From Mytilus edulis (taxonomy: Eukaryota), in contig NC_092351.1 of assembly GCF_963676685.1 (NCBI RefSeq), forward strand, positions 67,766,001 to 67,830,000: 64,000 nucleotides of DNA, given 5' to 3'. Shown in pieces: positions 189 to 53,120 of the stretch (the stretch's first letter is position 1; each line of letters begins with the position of its first letter). A program made the translations under genes and the position numbers. The notes under the pieces are model-generated. The model ran no database searches and was not told the DNA's origin. It worked only from the letters and a program-made list of their open reading frames with translations.

Positions 189-1212
189 TTAGCTTATTTA
201 TTGATTTTAATGTGGTATATATCTGTATAATGCTAACATTAAGTAGAAGAAATAATTGTCATATTGTTTGGATACAGCTTTAAATCCGTCCTGTAATTCA
301 TATTCTATCCGAAAATTATCTGTAGCTTTTAAAAGTGTGTGTTTTGTATTGTTTTATAATTGTTTTTATGATTATATGAAATATGGAAATTTCATGCCAT
401 GTTCATATGAAATGAAATTGCTTATATATTGTAAAAGAATTCATTATTTTTTGGGATATTTATAAACTGAATCAGCTATGACCCGGTCTTTAAACAAATC
501 ACTACAGTTGTGAACATCTAAATAATGGATAGTTGATCTTGTCATTTACCAATAGGAATAACAGGATGCCTAGTTCTGAATAAGAAAGGGTAATTATAGA
601 AAATAATCAGTCACCAAACAACACATAAATTCACAAATGCATTAGTTGTTTGGTCATGAATCAAATATTTTTCCATATTTGAATTCTTTGATTAGTTATT
701 CTATAATTATCGATTCTTTTCTGTTCTTATTTAGAATAGGGCAAACTATAAGAAGAAATTCTTATTGGTTCAATTAGTTCTAAATTTTAATAAGAAAGGA
801 AAAGAAGGGATAAGATGTATTAATTCACAACAAGAATCAGAACAAACAATGGATAACCCAAAGCAAAGGAACAGTGCTTTTATTGGTGTCTTCATCTGAA
901 AATAACAGCAAGGCCTTCAACATGAAACAAAGCTTACACCACACTGCAAGTTCATGGTTGCCCATAACTCTAGGTTGAGCAAAATTCTTTGCTAGATTTC
1001 CTGAAGGCTATATCTGTACATTAAGACCAGAACTATGGGTTACACTGTCCTTTGTTGCAGTTGTATTAGAATGATCAGTGTTTTACCAGTACACCACCCC
1101 TACCCCCACTTATGATGTTATAGACTATTTATATGGTTAAATAAAAGTTTAGGAATATGAGGATTAACTTGATGAAGTGGATCTGATCAACTGGTTTTTT
1201 TTATACTTGAAA

Positions 1213-2800: not shown

Positions 2801-4062
2801 ATATAGAATGTTGGACTATATTTAGGTAGCCTGGCTCAAAGGGCCAAGTAAGCTTTTCTTATTACTTGGCCTCTGTGGTCATCCTTTAACTTTTTACAAA
2901 ATATTGAACCAAACTTGTACAATTATCATTTTGGGTATCAATTTTAAAAGGTGTGTCTGGCAATACTGCCTTCCAACCAACATGGCAGACAGCTTAAAAA
3001 ACAACATACAAGGGTAAAATACAAATGTTGTTTATCATCTTGAGAACGGCTTTTAAAGACAAAATTTGACAGACGCAAATTTCAGAATGTTGAGATCTAC
3101 CTACTTTTCATTTATATCACAAGTTTTACAACTGTCAGATGAATTCTAATAGGAGTCATTTCCCTTAAATGACAAATTTTACTAATTCATTTTTCATTTA
3201 TGAATATTATGTTAAAAATTATAATAGATGTATTAGTGGTAGTTGTAAACTTCAAAGTCACATGGTCTCTTGCAGAGTTTTCTCATTGGCAATTATACCA
3301 CATCTTCTTAATTTGAAACATTAGCAGCACAATTGGAGTTACTGCTCTATAATAATGATTTTTGGATAAAGATTGCATGAAGTAAGTGCAATCAAACCCT
3401 ATGGTACTCAGAGGCAGGTATTAAGGGGGGTATGCCCCCCCCCTTTTCTGGAAAAAATCTGGGTGATTATATAGGGAATAACTGAAGCATGACTGGAGCG
3501 TGGCCCCTTTTGATTGGTTGAACAGCTACTTTATTTCAGATATACACTAGCATATAGCTATAGTTCCTATGTAATTCAAATTCATAATTAATTATTTACT
3601 ATTGATAAATTAATGTGAAAAAGCAAAATACATCAATTTAATCAGTAGATAAAAATTCCATAAAATTTCTTATTATATTATGCTTGTGTAAGATAATAAA
3701 GCTAATTTGATTGCCACAATTTTTGTTCCAACTGTTCAGGGTTTGACCTCTGCGTTTGTATCAGGCTGCGCTCAGCAAAGCATTTTATTTGAAATGCTGT
3801 AACTCCAATTCATACAAATTCTAGACCTCAACAGTAAATATACCAACATATTGTTCGTTTTGATCTACACTACATTAAATTCTTCCGTTAATTTTGTGTG
3901 AAAGCTGAATGATTTAAAAGCAAATGATTAGTTGGATTTTTTTGAAAAATAATAAAAAATATGTATAAAAATGCAAGTAGACTTTATTTCACGAGTAAAA
4001 TCCAGTGTCAACCTCTCTTTCAGGTATAGAGATGTGATTTTTCTCTGAGACAAGTGTTTGTG

Positions 4063-4908
4063 CATACCTGTCAACTGACCCGTATTCTGCGGGTGTGACC
4101 CGAGATTTTCACAATTCTGAGGGATCACCCGGAACACCCGCCGGGTCATTGGAATAACCCGGGAATTCCGAAAATGACCCGATTTCACCCGTATTTCTTA
4201 GCCTTGAGTATAGTCCTTTGAAATACCGGCAAATTCGTAATTCTTCCATGAACAGGAAGTTCACCTAGCTATGTAAACTGTCAAATTAAGTGACCCATTA
4301 AGTGCATGGCTTCACTTGACAGCTTTGGTGTCAAACACACTGTTAATTAACACCAATTACCTTAGCTTTAGGTCGAAAATAAATTGCACCATTGCCAATG
4401 GCATTGGTTCACAAACTAAACTAGAGTTACTTCCCCTTATTTGTCACCATTCAAAATTATTCCTTATATTTACGTTTTATGGGTGAAAAAGATTAAATCA
4501 TAAAAATATAAAATTCAAATACATATTGAAAAATAACTTTTCATTATTTTTATACCTTTATACAATTTTTTTTTTAAAAGTTGAAAATTATTTTTTAAGA
4601 ATTATATTAAATTCTAGTGTTTGATGATTGCAGTATTTTTTTCTCAAAAAGTAAAGCACATAAGACTAAGCTACACAAATTTATAAAAATCTTTAAAAGT
4701 GCAATGAAATAATATTTAATAAGATTTAAAATGACTTAACAAAGTGAACATGCATTGATGTTTTGGTATATTTGATATACATTATAAGAAAATGTACCAT
4801 AAATACTGAAATTTAGCTCGAAAAAGTTCGTACGCGTTGTGAACTGAGATTTGATTCTTCAATGCAGGTCATGACCTGCATTTTCTTCGTCACAGGTTGA
4901 CAGGTATG
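4063..4908. mobile_element. Non-autonomous DNA transposon, TIR CATACCTGTCAAC, 7-bp TSD gtttgtg
   Basis: 13-bp perfect TIR; TSD at 4056-4062 and 4909-4915. Confidence 0.9.
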
Positions 4909-5108
4909 GTTTGTGACCATCCACAATAAAAAAAAATGCGTTCATCCCTTGTTCAGTACTTCAGTACTTTTGTTAACTTTTACAGTAAAATTGAAATGAA
5001 AAGAGTATAAAAAAAAATTGAAAGAAGTAAGCCTTAGGATGGTCAGAAAAAATATCACTAGCTGTGAAACTGGTTCGATCACAACATCAATGATGCTTTC
5101 TTTCAGTG

Positions 5109-6191
5109 TTTTTGTCGAGCCTGCAACTTTTGTTGCAGAAAGCTCGACATAGGGATAGTGATCCGGCGGCGGCGGCGGCGTTAGCTAACTTTTTAAAAGC
5201 TTTATATTTTAGAGGGTGGAAGACCTGGATGCTTCATACTTTGTATATAGATGCCTCATGTTACGAAGTTTCCGTCAGTCACATGTCAAATGTCCTTGAC
5301 CTCATTTTCATGGTTCAGTGACCACTTGAAAAAAAAGTTCAGATTTTTTGTAATGTTGAATTTTCTCTTATTATAAGTAATAGGATAATTATATTTGGTA
5401 TGTGCGTACCTTGCAAGGTCCTCGTGCCCGTCAGACAGTTTTCACTTGACCTCGACCTCATTTCATGGATCAGTGAACAAGGTTAAGTTTTGGTGGTCAA
5501 GTCCATATCCCAGATACTATAAGCAATAGGTCTAGTATATTCGGTGTATGGAAGGACTGTAAGGTGTACATGTCCAACTGGCAGGTGTCATCTGACCTTG
5601 ACCTCATTTTCATGGTTCAGTGGTTATAGTTACGTTTTTGTGTTTTGGTCTGTTTTTCTCATACTTTATGCAATAGATCTACTATATTTATTGTATGGAA
5701 TGATTGTAAGATGTACATGTCTAGCGGCAGATGTCATCTGACCTTGACCTCGTTTTTCATGGTTGAGTGGTCAAAGTTAAGTTTTTGAGTTTTGGTCTTT
5801 TTATCTAATACTATATGCCATAGGTCAACTATATTTGGTGTATGGAAATATTTTATTATCTATATGTCAGTCCCGCAGGTTTTATTTGACCTCGACCTCA
5901 TTTTCACGGTTCATTGCTCAGTGTTAAGTTTTTGTGTTTTGGTCTATTTTTCTTAAAAAAGTAATAGGTCAACTATATTTGTTGTATGGAATCATTGTTA
6001 GCTGTACATGTCTGCCTGGCATGGTTCATCTGACCTTGACCTCATTTTCATGGTTCATTGGTCTTTGTTTAATTATCTTGGTTAATGCTAAGTTTATGTG
6101 AGTTTTTAATAAAGCTTTATACTTAGGACTATCAAAATAATATCAATAATTAGTAAAGAAGGCGAGACATTTCAGCGTGTGCACTCTTGTT
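5109..6191 (+). mobile_element. Helentron-associated (HINE/DINE-1/pearl-like) element with ~146-bp internal tandem array
   Basis: T-run start, 5' hairpin (gtcgagc...gctcgac), (GGC)n microsatellite, about 6 units of tgaccttgacctcattttcatgg, 3' short hairpin then T. Confidence 0.8.
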
Positions 6192-7309
6192 GTCTATTAT
6201 CTTGAAAACTATCCTTCTTTTATTGTTTTGGACAATAACTAAAGAAATTGTAGGCTTAACATAAAAACAATGATCAGCAATTCAAGATCAACAACAAGAA
6301 TGAATTCAATTCTAGTCTACAATGTTGGAGAGCCCATTGTTGGAATTGCACATGATGTTAGGTGACTCTTTGTAGAGCTTCTATTTCTAGCAAAAAATTC
6401 TCAACTCACTGACAGTAGAAACTAAACAGCAAATAAATATCAGTAATGTAACACCTACAAATTTCAATATGATTGAAACAATTTCGACACAGTTATTGAG
6501 GATTTTTTTTAATAAATCTCAATTATCAATTTTGTCTATTATCATGTTTAAAAATTGTGAATAACAATTGTGAATAACAATTTTTTCAGTAAACAGCGAA
6601 AGTGAAAGATTTATCCTTATAACATTTATATGTGAAAATAAATTGTCAGAAGGAATCAAAGGGAGGGATTGTTCAACATATAACAATAAGCTTTGGTTTA
6701 AATAAAATAAAATGTTGAAAGAATCGCAATCTTATATTTTGACCATTGCCCAAAAACAGTAAAATTGAGAAAGAAAATGGGGAATGTGTCAAAGCGACAA
6801 CAACCTGGCCATAGAGCCGAAGGCCACCAATGGGTCTTCAATGTAGCGAGAAACTCCCGCACCTGGAGGCGTCCTTCAGATGGCCCCTCGAAAATATGTA
6901 TATACTAGTTCAGTGATAATGGACGTCAGACCATACAAGACTAACAAGTCTGTGTCATTTTGGTCTTTTGTGGATAGTTGTCTCATTGGCAATCATACCA
7001 CATCTTCTTTTTTGTATAACAAAGGCAACAGGCTCCTGATTTGGGACAGGCGCAAAATTGCAGCAGGGTTAAACATGTTTATGAGATCTCAACCCTTCCC
7101 CTATACCTCTAGCCAATGTAGAAGAGTAAACGCATAACAATACGCACATTAAAATTCAGTTCAAGAGAAGTCCGAGTCTGATGTCAGAAGATGTAACAAA
7201 AGAAAATAAACAAAATGACAGTAATACATAAATAACAACAGACTACTAGCAGTTAACTGACATGCCAGCTCCAAACCTCAATTAAACTGATTGAAAGATT
7301 ATGTCTTCA

Positions 7310-7376
7310 TCTAATGAATATCAGGCACAATCCCTCCTGTTAGGGGTTTAGTATCATACTATCATAAAATATATGA
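7310..7376 (-). promoter_or_regulatory. SECIS-like element, copy in the minus-strand retroelement (partly decayed)
   Basis: Same 67-nt architecture on the minus strand; helix I and mini-stem carry mismatches. Confidence 0.65.
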
Positions 7377-7429
7377 GAAGAACATAACCCGTGTCATGCC
7401 AACAACTGTTTTTTAAATAAATGTGTTTA

Positions 7430-8202
7430 GTTTCGATGCAAAGACCCTTAAAGTTAATCAATATTAAAGCCAAAATATGCAATCTTTAATGACCTGACAA
7501 CAGTATCGTAACTATATCCCTTCTTAATAAGTCTGTTTAAAGGTTTTGTAAGCTTTTGAGGTGAATACTGACATTTGTGTGCTTTGTAAAGAATATTACC
7601 ATAAAAGATTGGATGTGAAATACCTGAAGATGTCTGCATGTTGAGGTATTATTTACAAATTATTTCCTCATATCGATGATAAAATTTAGTAAATGTTTTG
7701 ACTAGTTTGTGATATCGAACACCCTGGTGTAATAATTTTTCAGTAATACATAAATTTCTCTCGCTAAAATCTAATACATTGTTACATACACGAGCCAATC
7801 GTACAAGTTGAGATATATAAACACCATAAGATGGTGACAAGGGAACGTCACCATCTAAAAATGGATAATTAACAATAGGAAATGAAAAATCATCTCTTTT
7901 ATCATAAATTTTTGTATTAAGCTTCCCGTTAATGATTGAGATATCAAGATCGAGGAAAGGGCAGTGGTAATTGTTAATATTAGCTTTATTTAAAGTAAGT
8001 TCAACCAGGAACATATACATATAGGTATACTGTTCCCAGGTTCAACAGGATAAATTTCTTTAGTATACATACTGAAGTCGTCATTATTGACAGCCAATAT
8101 ATCATCCAAATATCTAAAAGTATTGTTAAATTTTTGTATCAAATGTTGTTTTGATGGGTCTTTGCTAATTTTAGTCATAAATTGTAACTCATAACAATAC
8201 AA
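7430..8202 (-). pseudogene. Reverse transcriptase pseudogene fragment of the Penelope-like element
   Basis: Three consecutive broken ORFs (7990-8202, 7649-8020, 7454-7639) with YLDD motif and thumb. Confidence 0.85.
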
Positions 8203-8593
8203 GTCAGGGGCCTCTGGCCTTTGTTAGTCTTGTATTATTTTTAATTTTAGTTTCTTGTGTACAATTTGGAGTTTAGTATGGCGTTCATTATCAGAGGCGG
8301 ATTTAGGCGGGGCGGGAAAAATTTTGATTGCTTATATAGGGAATCACTGAAGCGTGACTGGAGCCCCCCCCCCTTAGGCAGTCAGTGAGCCCCCACTTAT
8401 GAAAATTTCTAGATCCGCCGGTGATTATCACTGAACTAGTATATATATTTGTTTAGGGGGCAGCTGAAGGACGCCTCCGGGTGCGGGAATTTCTCGCTGC
8501 ATTGAAGACCTGTTGGTGACCTTCTGCTGTTGTCTTCTCTGTGGTCGGGTTGTTGTCTCTTTGACAGATTCCCCATTTCCATTCTCAATTTTA
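8199..8593 (+). mobile_element. Inverted 3'-terminal segment of the same Penelope-like element, fused to its truncated 5' end
   Basis: Reverse complement of ~6760-7045 (agtcagg..cctctggcctttgttagtcttg...ccattctcaatttta), interrupted by a MITE. Confidence 0.85.
8292..8423. mobile_element. CAG(A/T)GGCGGAT-type MITE, 5-bp TSD attat
   Basis: Imperfect TIR; splits the consensus gcgttcattatcactgaactag of the host element. Confidence 0.8.
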
Positions 8594-9323
8594 TTTTGAC
8601 AGTTACAGGGTTCACTGATCTGACTCAAATTCTGATATTTATTTATAAAATACAAAAACGTATATCCAAATTACATGAAGTGTGAATAAACAATAGACAA
8701 TTTTTTACCTATAATTGTTAACTTTTTATACAAATTGTGGCTTGGATGGAGAGTTGTCACCACAGGCAGTCTTAGAAAAAAAATTCCTATATACCTTAAT
8801 ATAAGTGTTATATATAAAGGTATATAAGAATTTTTTTCTGAGACAAGTGCTTGTGGTTGTCACACTGGCCCTCAAACCACATCTTATTTATGGGTCAACG
8901 TTTCGTGTGTATTTAGTCTGATTAACCATCCAGATGACCTCTGAAGACTGCCAACAGAAATATATATAGATTGTGTCTATATTCAATTTGATTTTTCTAG
9001 GTCAGCTAGATTTCATGTTATAGATTATAAAAATGAGTGAATCAGCCGGTTTTTTTCTGTAAAAGAATGTTATTTTTCTGTCAACCAAATGGTTCACCTT
9101 TTTTTAACCTTTTTTCCACCTTTTTTCCCCTGTTAATGACTGAACACGCCTAACACATGCGTATAAACAATCTCTAGCTAAGGGGTTAAATTCAAGGTCA
9201 CAAGAAAACGGATTCAATAAGGTCAAAGTTGAATAAATCATCGGCGATGTTTTGATATCTTGGGTTTTCTTTTTAAACTGAACTCAACTACCTGCTTTAG
9301 CCTTAAATCGAATAACTATGATT

Positions 9324-9364
9324 TCACTGATGAGTCCTATGTAGACGAAACGCGCGTCTGGCGT
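9324..9364 (+). ncRNA. Type I hammerhead ribozyme, copy 1 (core intact, stem I 5' arm truncated)
   Basis: CTGATGA 9327-9333, GTC/GAC stem II, GAAA 9347-9350, palindromic ACGCGCGT stem III, GTC cleavage triplet 9356-9358. Confidence 0.85.
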
Positions 9365-9668
9365 ACTAAATTATAATCCTGGTACCTTTGATAACTATTT
9401 ACACCACTGCCACTGCTGGTGGATATTTCGTCCCCGAGGGTATCACCAGCCCAGTAGTCAACACTTCGGTGTTGACATGAATATCAATAATGTGGTCATT
9501 TTTATAAATTTCCTGTTTACAAAACTTTGAATTTTTCGAAAAAAACTAAGGATTTTCTTATCCCAGGTATAGATAACCTTAGTCGTATTTGGCACAACTT
9601 TTTGGAATTTTGGATACTCAATGCTCCTCAACTTTGTACTTATTTGGCTTTATAATATTTTGATATGA

Positions 9669-9712
9669 GCGTCACTGATGAGTCTTATGTAGACAAAACA
9701 CGCGTCTGGCGT
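9669..9712 (+). ncRNA. Type I hammerhead ribozyme, copy 2 (full stem I, G12-to-A core mutation)
   Basis: gcgtca/tggcgt stem I, CTGATGA 9675-9681, GTCT/AGAC stem II, AAAA in place of GAAA, GTC 9704-9706. Confidence 0.8.
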
Positions 9713-10571
9713 ACTAAATTATAATCTTGGTACCTTTGATAACTATTCTGTCCAAGTTTTGTAAAAATCTAGAATAGTTTATGAATCTAATAAATGTTTT
9801 AAAAGCTTTAACTACAGACTGTTACTGTATGTAATCTTAACTGGAAGAAAAACTGAGTCCATTTATAAGTAAAAAAAGGAAAAACATGTACACAATTTTA
9901 ACAAAATTTCCCGCTATAGATACTAGCTTTTGATCATAAACAAGCTTCTGTGCAAGTTTGGTACTGAAAACAGGATAGTTTAATAAAGTTAATAAGATTT
10001 AAAAAACTTTAATCTCAGAGTGAATCTAATGTTTCCTGGCAGAAAAACTAAGTCCATTTATAACTAAAATACGGAAAAAATGATTGATTTTTTATTGCAA
10101 AATTTACTTCTGGATCTTATGATCGATTTTAAAAACTTTAATCTCGGAGTGAATGTAATGGTTCCTGACAGAAAACTAAGTCCATTTATAAGTAAAATAC
10201 GAATATACATGATTATTTTTAATTTACTTCTGGATACTATCTTATGATCATAAACAAACTTCTTTCCAAGTTTGGTACACATCCAGGATAGTTTTAATAA
10301 GAAAGTTATTTAAATTTTAAAACCTTTAACCACAGAGTGAATACTTGTGGACGATGCCGGCCGACAACGACGACGAGGGAGTGCAGAATCGGTATGTCTC
10401 GCTTTTTCGACAAAAGTCGAAGGCTCGACAAATATGAAAAACGTTCACATTTGTATTATATGATTTTCTATCAGTTGTTTCTTTGTTTAAAATATTCTAA
10501 GAGTGTTAATCTATGATATGATAAGTAACATACAACTTCTCTAGAAGAAAATATCATGACTTATATCATGA

Positions 10572-11314
10572 CTTATTACGAAGGGATATAATTACGATAC
10601 TGTTGTCAAGTCATTAAAGATTGCATATTTTGGCGTTAATATTGAGTCACTGATAAGGTCTTTGCATCGGAACTAAACACATTTATTCTAAAAACAGTTG
10701 TTGGCATGACACGGGTTATGTTCTTCTCATATATGTTATGATGGTATGATACTAAACCCCTAACGGGAAGGATTGTGCCTGATGTTCATATGATGAAATC
10801 ATAATCTTTCAGTCAGTTTAGTTGAAGTCTGGAGCTGGCATGTCAGTTAACTGCTAGTAGTCTGTTGTTATTTATGTATTATTGTCATTTTGTTTATTTT
10901 CTTTGGTTACATCTTCTGACATCAGACTCGGATTTCTCTTGAACTGAATTTTAATGTGCGTATTGTTATGCGTTTACTTTACTACATTGGTTAGAGGTAT
11001 AGGGGGAGGGTTGAGATCTCACAAACATGTTTAACCCCGCCGCATTTTTGCGCCTGTCCCAAGTCAGGAGCCTCTGGCCTTTGTTAGTCTTGTATTATTT
11101 TAATTTTAGTTTCTTGTGTACAATTTGGAAATTAGTATGGCGTTCATTACCACTGGACTAGTATATATTTGTTTAGGGGCCAGCTGAAGGACGCCTCCGG
11201 GTGCGGGAATTTCTCGCTACATTGAAGACCTGTTGGTGACCCTCTGCTGTTGTTTTTTTATTTGGGCGGGTTGTTGTCTCTTTGACACATTCCCCATTTC
11301 CATTTTCAATTTTA
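10572..11314 (+). mobile_element. Second 5'-truncated copy of the Penelope-like element (ORF tail LITKGYNYDTVVKSLKIAYFGVNIESLIRSLHRN* plus 3' UTR)
   Basis: Close reverse complement of 6760-7530; stop TAA at 10674-10676. Confidence 0.88.
10727..10793 (+). promoter_or_regulatory. Type II SECIS-like element in the retroelement 3' UTR
   Basis: Helix I tcatat/atatga; core ATGAT(10738)...TGAT(10780); 11-bp helix II ggtatgatact/aggattgtgcc with one mismatch; unpaired AAA 10754-10756; apical mini-stem ccc-taac-ggg. Confidence 0.8.
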
Positions 11315-14419: not shown

Positions 14420-14510
14420 ATGGCCGACCAGTTCTCTTCCCTAGAAAATGTCGATGGGCCACCAGCAGCAAAGCGACAGAAAACAGCATTAAGCGCATCT
14501 TCAGATGGAG
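14420..14510 (+). CDS. CREBBP: CBP coding exon 1 ([21 protein letters not shown]..., NLS-like)
   Basis: ATG in ACCATCATGG context; [10 protein letters not shown] resembles the CBP/p300 N-terminus; phase-1 donor at 14511, or 14514 (tandem GTAGTATG). Confidence 0.88.
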
Positions 14511-52478: not shown

Positions 52479-53120
52479 TAAAATTGAGAAAGGAAATGGT
52501 GAATATGTCAAAGCGACAACCACCCGACCATAGAGCAAACAACAGCCGAAGGCAACCAATGGGTCTTCAATGTAGCGAGAATTCCCGCACCCGTAGGTGT
52601 CCTTCAGCTGGCCCCTAAAATGTGCATAATAGTACAGTGATAATGGACGTCATACTAAACTCCGAATTATACACAAGAAACTAAAATTTAAAATCATACA
52701 AGACTAACAAAGGCCAGAGGCTCCTGACTTGGGACAGGCGCAAAATTGTGGCAGGGTTAAACATGTTTATGAGATCTCAACCCTCCCCCTATACCTCTAG
52801 CCAATGTAGAAAAGTAAAACAATAACAATACGCACATTAAAATTCAGTTCAAGAGAAGTCCGAGTCTGATGTCAAAAGATGTAACAAAAGAAAATAAATA
52901 AAATGACAATAATACATAAATAACAACAGACTACTAGCAGTTAACTGACATGCCAGCTCCAGACCTCAATTAAACTGATTGAAAGATTATGTCTTCATCA
53001 TATGAATATCAGGTACAATCCCTCCCGTTAGGGGTTTAGTATCGTACTATCATAAAATATATGAGAAGAACATAACCGTGTCATGCCAACAACTGTTTTT
53101 TTAGAAATAAATGTGTTTAG
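52479..53120 (-). mobile_element. Third copy (3' UTR only) of the Penelope-like element
   Basis: Colinear with 6760-7430; ttagata occurs at both junctions. Confidence 0.88.
52998..53064 (-). promoter_or_regulatory. SECIS-like element, third copy
   Basis: Minus strand reads ATGAT agtacgatact AAA cccctaacggga gggattgtacc TGAT. Confidence 0.72.

What the first reader, a model, noticed from the sequence alone, without database searches (positions are those of the whole stretch)
9323..9747. Hammerhead retrozyme: 348-nt unit between two type I hammerhead ribozymes with different lesions
Seen: two hammerhead motifs 348 nt apart with predicted GUC cleavage sites at 9358 and 9706, and a minimal stem III closed by the palindrome ACGCGCGT in copy 1. 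Copy 1 has an intact core but only ~3 bp of stem I. Copy 2 has a full 6-bp stem I but GAAA mutated to AAAA (G12, the general base). Known: metazoan non-LTR retrozymes, including ~350-nt ones in mussels, yield circular RNAs, cleave as dimers via palindromic stem III, and are thought to be mobilised by Penelope-like elements. Inference: this is a monomer-plus-overlap insertion, the structure expected from reverse transcription of a circular RNA, now probably crippled.
Basis: partly seen in the sequence, partly recalled or inferred. Interest (0 to 1): 0.75.

Follow-up and report, generated by a model that had tools for sequence, protein, structure and literature searches.

The report
Dead mussel retrozyme bearing Naiad hairpin
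This is a broken copy of a known self-cutting, circle-forming mussel repeat; most copies examined stop at one point just before an RNA hairpin that also opens Naiad jumping genes, which likely names the enzyme that copies these repeats and where it starts.

Summary
The two type I hammerheads, 348 nt apart, are real (RF00163, E 1e-5 and 6e-3, both under the gathering score). They lie in a 424-nt copy of the known mussel non-LTR retrozyme; its tail motif occurs 10,511 times in this genome. The copy is likely dead, with more lesions than first noted. The two-ribozyme frame is incidental: 72 of 79 copies share one 3' end, 41 nt past the cleavage site, and their 5' ends are scattered. That end lies about 5-6 nt before a 63-nt covarying hairpin. 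The hairpin is 87% identical to the first bases of an intact Naiad (Penelope-like) family whose copies end at the same offset, and its core opens 11 named of 54 published Naiad consensi. Best reading: a Naiad reverse transcriptase likely binds the hairpin, starts just upstream and copies a circle or multimer. No biochemistry tests this, and the adjacent Naiad family does not match the hairpin model. Dimer cleavage is not needed in mussel per the source paper. This scan reported the same link earlier on other DNA; I took the lead from those notes and re-tested it. I found it in none of my literature searches.

The parts
9324..9747 (+). Retrozyme insertion, 424 nt = one 348-nt unit plus 76 nt; ragged 5' end at 9324, family-fixed 3' end at 9747
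9324..9364 (+). Hammerhead copy 1: intact core, stem I cut to 3 bp by the 5' truncation, stem II mismatch at 9337, predicted cut after 9358
9401..9459 (+). Naiad-type hairpin (predicted reverse transcriptase recognition signal), damaged here by an 8-nt deletion after 9407 and changes at 9424-9425
   Evidence: 44.6 bits, E 2e-8; 45 of 53 identical to Naiad-D start, E 9e-12
9669..9712 (+). Hammerhead copy 2: 6-bp stem I, G12A at 9695, G>A at 9700 in loop III, predicted cut after 9706
9707..9747 (+). 41-nt tail from the cleavage site to the fixed 3' end (inferred start of reverse transcription)
9746..10432 (+). Right flank: an unrelated dispersed repeat with internal ~190-nt units; its 5' part is missing here
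8953..9255 (.). Left flank: an older unrelated dispersed repeat (about 70-78% identity to other copies)
6760..8202 (-). Neighbour: 5'-truncated Naiad-A copy, followed by an inverted 3' piece at 8200-8593; a further Naiad-A 3' piece at 10570-11314
14420..14509 (+). Neighbour: first coding exon of a CBP/EP300 gene, 4.7 kb downstream on the same strand

Best explanation
This is a decayed, 5'-truncated copy of the mussel hammerhead retrozyme, likely written into the genome by the reverse transcriptase of a Naiad (Penelope-like) element that would bind a shared RNA hairpin and start about 5-6 nt upstream of it. Steps: (1) intact arrays are transcribed on the ribozyme strand (family RNA shown here; self-cleavage and circles shown for the mussel family in PMC7229834). 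(2) Each unit carries a 63-nt hairpin homologous to the first bases of Naiad elements (shown). (3) The Naiad protein binds the hairpin, nicks AT-rich DNA and primes reverse transcription at a fixed internal site, 41 nt past the ribozyme cut (inferred from the shared end offset, and by analogy with internal initiation by Poseidon, PMC11167929). (4) It copies through the ribozyme junction and stops at a random point, giving a fixed 3' end, ragged 5' ends and arrays of under one to several units (pattern shown; enzyme inferred). (5) Because the hairpin lies just outside each new copy's 3' end, a linear template would lose a unit per round, so circularisation would be what keeps the family going (inferred). 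This copy ran 1.2 units, joined another repeat at its 3' end, and later lost both ribozymes and part of the hairpin, so it likely makes no circle.
For: Fixed 3' end: 72 of 79 distinct family-1 copies end at unit positions 66-82 against 5 of 79 starts; 16 of 19 copies picked by a mid-unit query and 8 of 8 met incidentally do so. Of the first 100 listed of 10,511 tail matches, 71 stop and 29 run on into the hairpin (my count by eye). Same offset: 24 of 30 retrozyme tails stop 2-9 nt before helix P1 (mode 6; the other 6 run on), and 28 of 30 Naiad-D-type ends stop 4-8 nt before it (mode 5). A second and a third retrozyme family behave alike (8 of 10 tails; 14 of 17 segments). Hairpin homology: 55 of 63 identical to the Naiad-D start, E 2.7e-18, the only significant match between the unit and the 3,370-nt element; also at the starts of Naiad-B and -C. 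Structure: 98.9% of cells paired, 7 of 23 pairs with changes on both sides, slid controls 36-54%; z -3.5. A model built without Naiad-B finds its start (E 0.0065); among the HHR-bearing canonical Penelope loci searched it hits only retrozyme copies. The core string opens 11 named of 54 published Naiad consensi plus one record whose name was not shown. Naiad-D has intact 1000-aa ORFs; 7 of 9 compared are 98.8-100% identical to the reference. Arrays: 2.6% divergence within and 6.2% between; all 9 arrays carry 2-12 variants shared by every unit; one alternates at 10 sites. No pile-up of 5' ends at the ribozyme cut (3 of 79 at positions 31-37).
Against: No binding, nicking or reverse transcription was tested. 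Naiad-A, the family beside this locus (35,780 protein-search candidates), does not match the hairpin by alignment (1926 of 2000 shuffles score as well) or by the model, so the signal is not universal in Naiads; 43 of 54 published consensi had no named exact hit. The covariation rests on 8 related rows, and the shuffle control ignores relatedness. Three Naiad families carry the hairpin, so the helper is not pinned to one. Shared variants within arrays also follow from later tandem duplication or from linear read-through transcripts; array L108 is a mosaic (5.3% within). 7 of 79 copies end elsewhere; the filter required a tail motif, and two of its four subsets were selected with the tail in the query. 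Target duplications are short and inconsistent (6 nt or more in 12 of 72, against 3.6 expected) and this copy has at most 3 nt. The RNA reads show no circle-specific joint and no pile-up at the cut site. Two Naiad-D ORFs gave low values in the unaligned comparison (out of register) and were not re-aligned.
Confidence: 0.72

Rival explanations
1. The hairpin records ancestry only: the retrozyme arose from the start of a Naiad, but another Penelope-like protein (for example a hammerhead-bearing Penelope or Neptune family) now copies it.
For: Several canonical Penelope-like families with minimal hammerheads and long ORFs exist in this genome; PMC7229834, PMC7761336 and the 2026 preprint favour hammerhead-bearing PLEs as helpers.
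Against: None of those loci carries the hairpin outside retrozyme copies, and their ribozymes look unrelated in sequence (by eye). The hairpin is the best-kept part between retrozyme families that are about 69% identical overall, and the end offset matches Naiad-D.
Confidence: 0.1
2. Naiad-driven copying, but from linear read-through transcripts of existing arrays, with long arrays built afterwards by unequal crossover or template jumping; circles are a by-product.
For: The 2026 preprint (10.64898/2026.07.22.740005) proposes local amplification after insertion. Naiads form tandem copies without canonical hammerheads. For Poseidon, ribozyme cleavage was not needed for insertion (PMC11167929). 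Within-array similarity fits either route.
Against: Circles are the dominant RNA form in mussel (PMC7229834); the ribozyme core is kept in three diverged families; linear templates would shorten copies each round because the last unit lacks the hairpin (inference).
Confidence: 0.13
3. This particular copy is still active or has been co-opted as a cis-element upstream of the CBP/EP300 gene.
For: It lies 4.7 kb upstream of the start codon on the same strand; copy 1 keeps an intact core.
Against: It carries lesions in both ribozymes and the hairpin; G12A slows hammerheads about 10^5-10^6-fold (PMC2553840, passages); the intact core and the intact stem I strand are on different copies and cannot complement in cis (inference); no RNA read in three runs covers the left flank at 9250-9312 (6-18% of each run read).
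Confidence: 0.05

Closest known systems
Mytilus galloprovincialis non-LTR retrozymes (Cervera and de la Pena 2020, PMC7229834; parts 2-4 of 6 of the main text read; supplement too large to read)
   Same: Type I hammerhead, units of about 350 nt, thousands of copies, tandem arrays, no ORF, abundant RNA; the host is a Mytilus-like mussel (neighbouring protein 97% identical to M. coruscus EP300).
   Different: The parts read describe no fixed 3' end and no helper signal; they report two ribozyme families, and I see three unit families sharing the hairpin. Direct sequence identity to the published clones was not tested.
Naiad clade of Penelope-like elements (Craig et al. 2021, PMC8557442; passages and supplementary file 1, searched and part 1 read)
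   Same: Naiad-B here matches the start of Naiad_Mgal in DNA and protein; tandem copies, 5' truncation, fixed 3' end, and the same opening hairpin.
   Different: The retrozyme has no ORF and has a canonical hammerhead, which Naiads lack. The main text has no occurrence of 'hairpin' or 'stem-loop'.
Internal initiation by Poseidon_Ac (Frangieh et al. 2024, PMC11167929; parts 1-2 of 4 read)
   Same: Reverse transcription starts at fixed internal sites downstream of a hammerhead; genomic ends fall on those sites; AT-rich targets.
   Different: A different PLE clade, two start sites in an AC-rich stem-loop inside the ORF, shown in vitro; here one inferred site upstream of a hairpin, on a non-autonomous template.
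Xenopus retrozymes as PLE pLTR derivatives (Li, Clavereau, Pollet 2026, bioRxiv 10.64898/2026.07.22.740005; parts 1-3 of 5 read, supplements closed)
   Same: Retrozymes share sequence with PLE termini and are proposed to use PLE enzymes.
   Different: Vertebrates, Neptune/Poseidon; no mussel, no hairpin, no start site (0 occurrences of mussel, Mytilus, hairpin, stem); favours local tandem amplification.

Membership tests
Metazoan non-LTR retrozyme | Type I hammerhead in each repeat unit | tested here: met
   RF00163 matches at both motifs; 44 of 61 full family units start with a perfect core and stem III
Metazoan non-LTR retrozyme | Short (150-450 nt) non-coding tandem units, many dispersed copies | tested here: met
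   Units of 353-360 nt in 59 of 61; 6,112 candidates; 10,511 tail matches; no ORF of 120 aa at the locus
Metazoan non-LTR retrozyme | Family expressed as RNA | tested here: met
   3,968-7,611 reads laid per run in three RNA runs (some from the flanking repeat and related families); about 5:1 strand bias in two of them, consistent with the ribozyme strand
Metazoan non-LTR retrozyme | Self-cleavage and circular RNA | not testable with these tools
   Shown for the mussel family in PMC7229834; short reads cannot tell a circle from a tandem array
Active retrozyme copy (two intact hammerheads) | Both ribozymes complete | tested here: not met
   3-bp stem I and a stem II mismatch in copy 1; G12A and a loop III change in copy 2
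Published M. galloprovincialis retrozyme sequence family | Sequence identity to the published clones | not testable with these tools
   Supplement of PMC7229834 could not be read
Non-autonomous Penelope-like (Naiad-dependent) element | Fixed 3' end with variable 5' truncation | tested here: met
Non-autonomous Penelope-like (Naiad-dependent) element | Sequence or structure shared with an autonomous element at the matching end | tested here: met
   55 of 63 identical to the Naiad-D start, same end offset, covariation; not met for Naiad-A
Non-autonomous Penelope-like (Naiad-dependent) element | Target-site duplication or inverted 5' partner copy | tested here: inconclusive
   Modest excess of short duplications (mean 4.35 vs 3.80 +/- 0.10 nt); opposed tails seen in only one region of the loci held
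Non-autonomous Penelope-like (Naiad-dependent) element | Mobilisation by the Naiad protein | not testable with these tools
   Needs biochemistry
Naiad clade (for the helper, Naiad-D) | N-terminal GIY-YIG, CxC motif, DKA motif, C-terminal RT in one ORF | tested here: met
   1000-aa ORF with the motifs in that order; Pfam RVT_1 E 8.5e-5 and GIY-YIG E 0.034, both under the curated cut-offs; criteria from PMC8557442
Plant-type LTR retrozyme | Type III hammerheads in LTRs, both ends fixed, 4-bp TSD | tested here: not met
   Type I motif; 5' ends scattered. PBS and PPT were not searched.

The most novel reading that the evidence does not exclude
Mussel retrozymes are ribozyme circles that captured the 5' hairpin of hammerhead-free Naiad elements. 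That hairpin is the Naiad reverse transcriptase's binding and template-boundary signal, kept from bivalves to hemichordates and a fish, and it sets the start 5-6 nt upstream. Because the signal is left outside every new copy, ribozyme-made circles are what let the parasite regenerate full units by rolling-circle target-primed reverse transcription.
Probability: 0.55. Interest if true: 0.75.

Novelty: new variant of a known kind. Interest (0 to 1): 0.58.

Why it matters
The locus itself is an ordinary dead copy of a described family. The family-level pattern bears on a question stated as open: PMC7761336 says metazoan retrozymes show no conserved motif that points to their helper element, and hammerhead-bearing PLEs were the guess. 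The data here name a hammerhead-free clade, a 63-nt signal and a start site to within a few bases, so one in vitro assay can test helper, signal and circular template together. It would also give the first candidate RNA recognition element for Naiads, a telomerase-related reverse transcriptase group, and a reason for retrozymes to circularise.

Tried and rejected
Rfam gathering scan of the window: 0 hits; no Rfam family matches the hairpin at E up to 10; an HDV-like or twister reading of 9401-9480, considered by eye from recalled consensus features, was dropped for that reason. Free-energy folding does not recover the hammerhead fold for either copy or for an intact copy, so it says nothing on activity. 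Canonical hammerhead-bearing PLEs as helper: 50 loci screened by pattern, 40 of them by the hairpin model, no shared ribozyme or hairpin found. Naiad-A as helper: a motif I designed after seeing both sequences matched, but that is circular, and alignment and model tests failed; its ends do stop 3-8 nt before its own predicted stem (26 of 26). A hammerhead-like stretch at the end of the Naiad-A ORF resembles the retrozyme core by eye; not tested. A DNA search with the Naiad-D 3' end returned nothing, probably because common words are skipped; a pattern search was used instead. No run holding the stretch is on record as RNA (no RNA holder listed; no evidence either way); raw-read runs of the same species label were laid instead. 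The empty site of this insertion was not found: right-flank relatives have a different upstream sequence, so the left junction stays unexplained. In one search, 11 of 20 picked loci were dropped for having fewer than two complete units. Literature searches that did not show the fixed end or the Naiad hairpin in print: retrozyme+hammerhead+Mytilus, Penelope-like+hammerhead+TPRT+cryo-EM (29), retrozyme+Naiad (30), Naiad+Penelope+bivalve (61), retrozyme+truncated+target-primed+Penelope (82), Naiad+Penelope-like+reverse transcription+stem-loop (93); most hits were seen as listings only. Subscription journals, Repbase notes, the supplement of PMC7229834 and the preprint's supplements were not visible and may bear on novelty.

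Full report
Observation. The window holds a 76-nt direct repeat at 9324-9399 and 9672-9747. Each copy carries a type I hammerhead that scores against Rfam RF00163 (31.3 and 22.8 bits; E 9.6e-6 and 0.0061), under the gathering score of 34. Cut sites follow 9358 and 9706. Copy 1 has 3 bp of stem I and a stem II mismatch at 9337; copy 2 has G12A at 9695 and G>A at 9700. G12 is the general base, and G12A slows cleavage about 10^5-10^6-fold (PMC2553840, passages). The numbering of hammerhead positions is from established knowledge.

Family. The 424 nt match 6,112 candidate places in the 1.37-Gb genome; the best scored are 90-94% identical over the full length and often lie in tandem arrays. An exact 19-nt tail motif occurs 10,511 times, with 0 for the reversed control. 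Of 61 full units, 59 are 353-360 nt and 44 start with a perfect core and stem III. The host is a Mytilus-like mussel: the gene 4.7 kb downstream encodes a protein 97% identical to M. coruscus EP300. This fits the mussel retrozymes of PMC7229834 (350-390 nt, about 5,000 ribozymes, monomer cleavage at about 0.1/min, mostly circular RNA; parts 2-4 read). I could not compare sequences with that paper because its supplement was unreadable. Three RNA runs hold thousands of reads of the family, two with a strand bias of about 5:1 that fits the ribozyme strand; none covers this locus's left flank.

Ends. Mapping array boundaries showed that copies stop at one place on the 3' side, 41 nt after the cut site, while 5' ends scatter. 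Across all loci, 72 of 79 distinct family-1 copies end at unit positions 66-82 and 5 of 79 start there. That set was filtered for a tail motif and partly selected with it; the subsets not selected on the tail give 16 of 19 (mid-unit query) and 8 of 8 (incidental). Of the first 100 tail matches listed, 71 stop and 29 run on (counted by eye). Copies range from 29 to 2,422 nt. Only 3 of 79 start near the cut site, so the cut linear monomer is likely not the main template. The window copy is therefore one that ran 1.2 units; that it stopped 3 nt before a ribozyme core is likely chance. Short target duplications are in modest excess (6 nt or more in 12 of 72, against 3.6 in shuffled pairings).

Helper. 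I first screened hammerhead-bearing canonical Penelope-like loci and found no shared ribozyme. A full-length Naiad fetched for another reason (L151) opens with a clear match to the retrozyme sequence just after the fixed end (score 43.5; best of 2,000 shuffles 27). A protein search found two more families. Naiad-D, a 3,370-nt element in tandem copies with an intact 1000-aa ORF (GIY-YIG, CxC, DKA, RT), opens with 63 nt of which 55 are identical to the retrozyme (E 2.7e-18), the only significant match between the two. Naiad-C carries a more diverged version. All fold into the same long hairpin; on 8 aligned rows 98.9% of cells pair and 7 of 23 pairs change on both sides, against 36-54% pairing when partners are slid. 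The rows are related, so this supports the structure but is not a probability. Naiad-D-type 3' ends (8,793 matches) stop 4-8 nt before the hairpin's first helix in 28 of 30 loci; retrozyme tails stop 2-9 nt before it in 24 of 30, and the other 6 run on. Two further retrozyme families carry the hairpin and stop at the same place. A covariance model built without Naiad-B finds its start (E 0.0065) and, over 570 kb including 40 loci from the GIY-YIG screen, otherwise finds only retrozyme copies. In the supplement of PMC8557442 the core string opens 11 named of 54 Naiad consensi (oysters, ark clam, mussels, two hemichordates, one fish) and one record whose name was not shown; one further hit lies inside an ORF. 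An exact-string search misses diverged versions.

Against. Naiad-A, the family that flanks this locus, does not match the hairpin by alignment or model. The helper cannot be narrowed to one of the three hairpin-bearing families, although Naiad-D is the closest. Nothing here shows binding or catalysis.

Template. Units within an array differ by 2.6% and between arrays by 6.2%; each of 9 arrays has 2-12 variants in all its units, and one alternates between two unit types at 10 sites, as a dimeric template would give (11 of 20 picked loci had too few complete units). Later tandem duplication or linear multimers would look the same, and one array is a mosaic. The argument for a circle is indirect: the hairpin falls just outside each new copy, so a linear template loses a unit per round, and circles are the main RNA form in mussel (PMC7229834).

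This copy. Besides the ribozyme lesions it has lost 8 nt of the hairpin's outer helix and has changes at 9424-9425. Any monomer cut from it would carry the G12A core. Its 3' end joins a different repeat at the same position as an independent insertion elsewhere in the genome, but the upstream part of that repeat is missing here and the left junction is unexplained.

Comparison and verdict. It works like a SINE with a LINE helper, except that the shared signal is the helper's 5' hairpin and lies beyond the copy's end, in line with internal initiation shown for Poseidon (PMC11167929, parts 1-2). PMC7761336 (passages) states that no motif points to the helper; the 2026 preprint (parts 1-3) links Xenopus retrozymes to PLE termini but has no mussel, Naiad link or hairpin; PMC4918200 (passages) notes only large TSDs in Nematostella. 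Six literature searches did not show the link in print. This scan noted it before on other DNA. The element is known and this copy is ordinary; the helper and start signal are new relative to the papers seen, well supported by sequence, and untested at the bench.

Noticed in passing
L334-L361 (for example G000 C1:57061425-57065701, 13 listed units): A third, very young retrozyme family: 350-nt units about 69% identical to family 1, a different hammerhead (AUC site), the same hairpin and the same end offset; it makes up most of the first 100 listed of 2,357 pattern matches.
   Followed up: partly
L171:5131-9162; pieces at window 6760-8202, 8200-8593, 10570-11314, 52479-53120: A 4,031-nt Naiad family (Naiad-A) whose ORF has an in-frame TGA shortly after the DKA motif in every copy translated and further TGAs near the GIY-YIG region, as in the selenoprotein Naiads described for clams and spiders; no SECIS search was run.
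   Followed up: partly
window 10646-10678 and the end of the Naiad-A ORF: A stretch resembling a hammerhead core overlaps the last codons of the Naiad-A ORF; by eye only.
   Followed up: no
window 9310-9323: The left flank holds an 8-nt match to the retrozyme's own 3' end, 3 nt before the 5' junction; chance or a remnant of the insertion event.
   Followed up: no
window 9746-9760 and L326: Two independent retrozyme insertions end at the same position of the same host repeat, suggesting a preferred nick site; the L326 case shows a duplication of about 3 nt.
   Followed up: partly
L023 (about 255-390, minus strand); L151 3' UTR; L345-L348: Nested insertions: a 131-nt family-2 retrozyme end inside a Naiad-A ORF, a 29-nt family-1 tail inside a Naiad-B 3' UTR, and a Naiad-C 3' end in opposite orientation interrupting a family-3 array.
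   Followed up: partly
L250, about 120 nt after the hairpin; also in published bivalve Naiad consensi: A conserved GC-rich box followed by a TATA-like motif lies downstream of the hairpin; if it is the promoter, Naiad transcripts would gain the hairpin only by reading into the next tandem copy.
   Followed up: no
L149, L154, L163, L166: Another hammerhead-bearing repeat related to family 3 at the ribozyme but with a different downstream sequence and no hairpin match nearby.
   Followed up: no
window 14420-49148: The window holds a multi-exon CBP/EP300 gene on the plus strand.
   Followed up: partly
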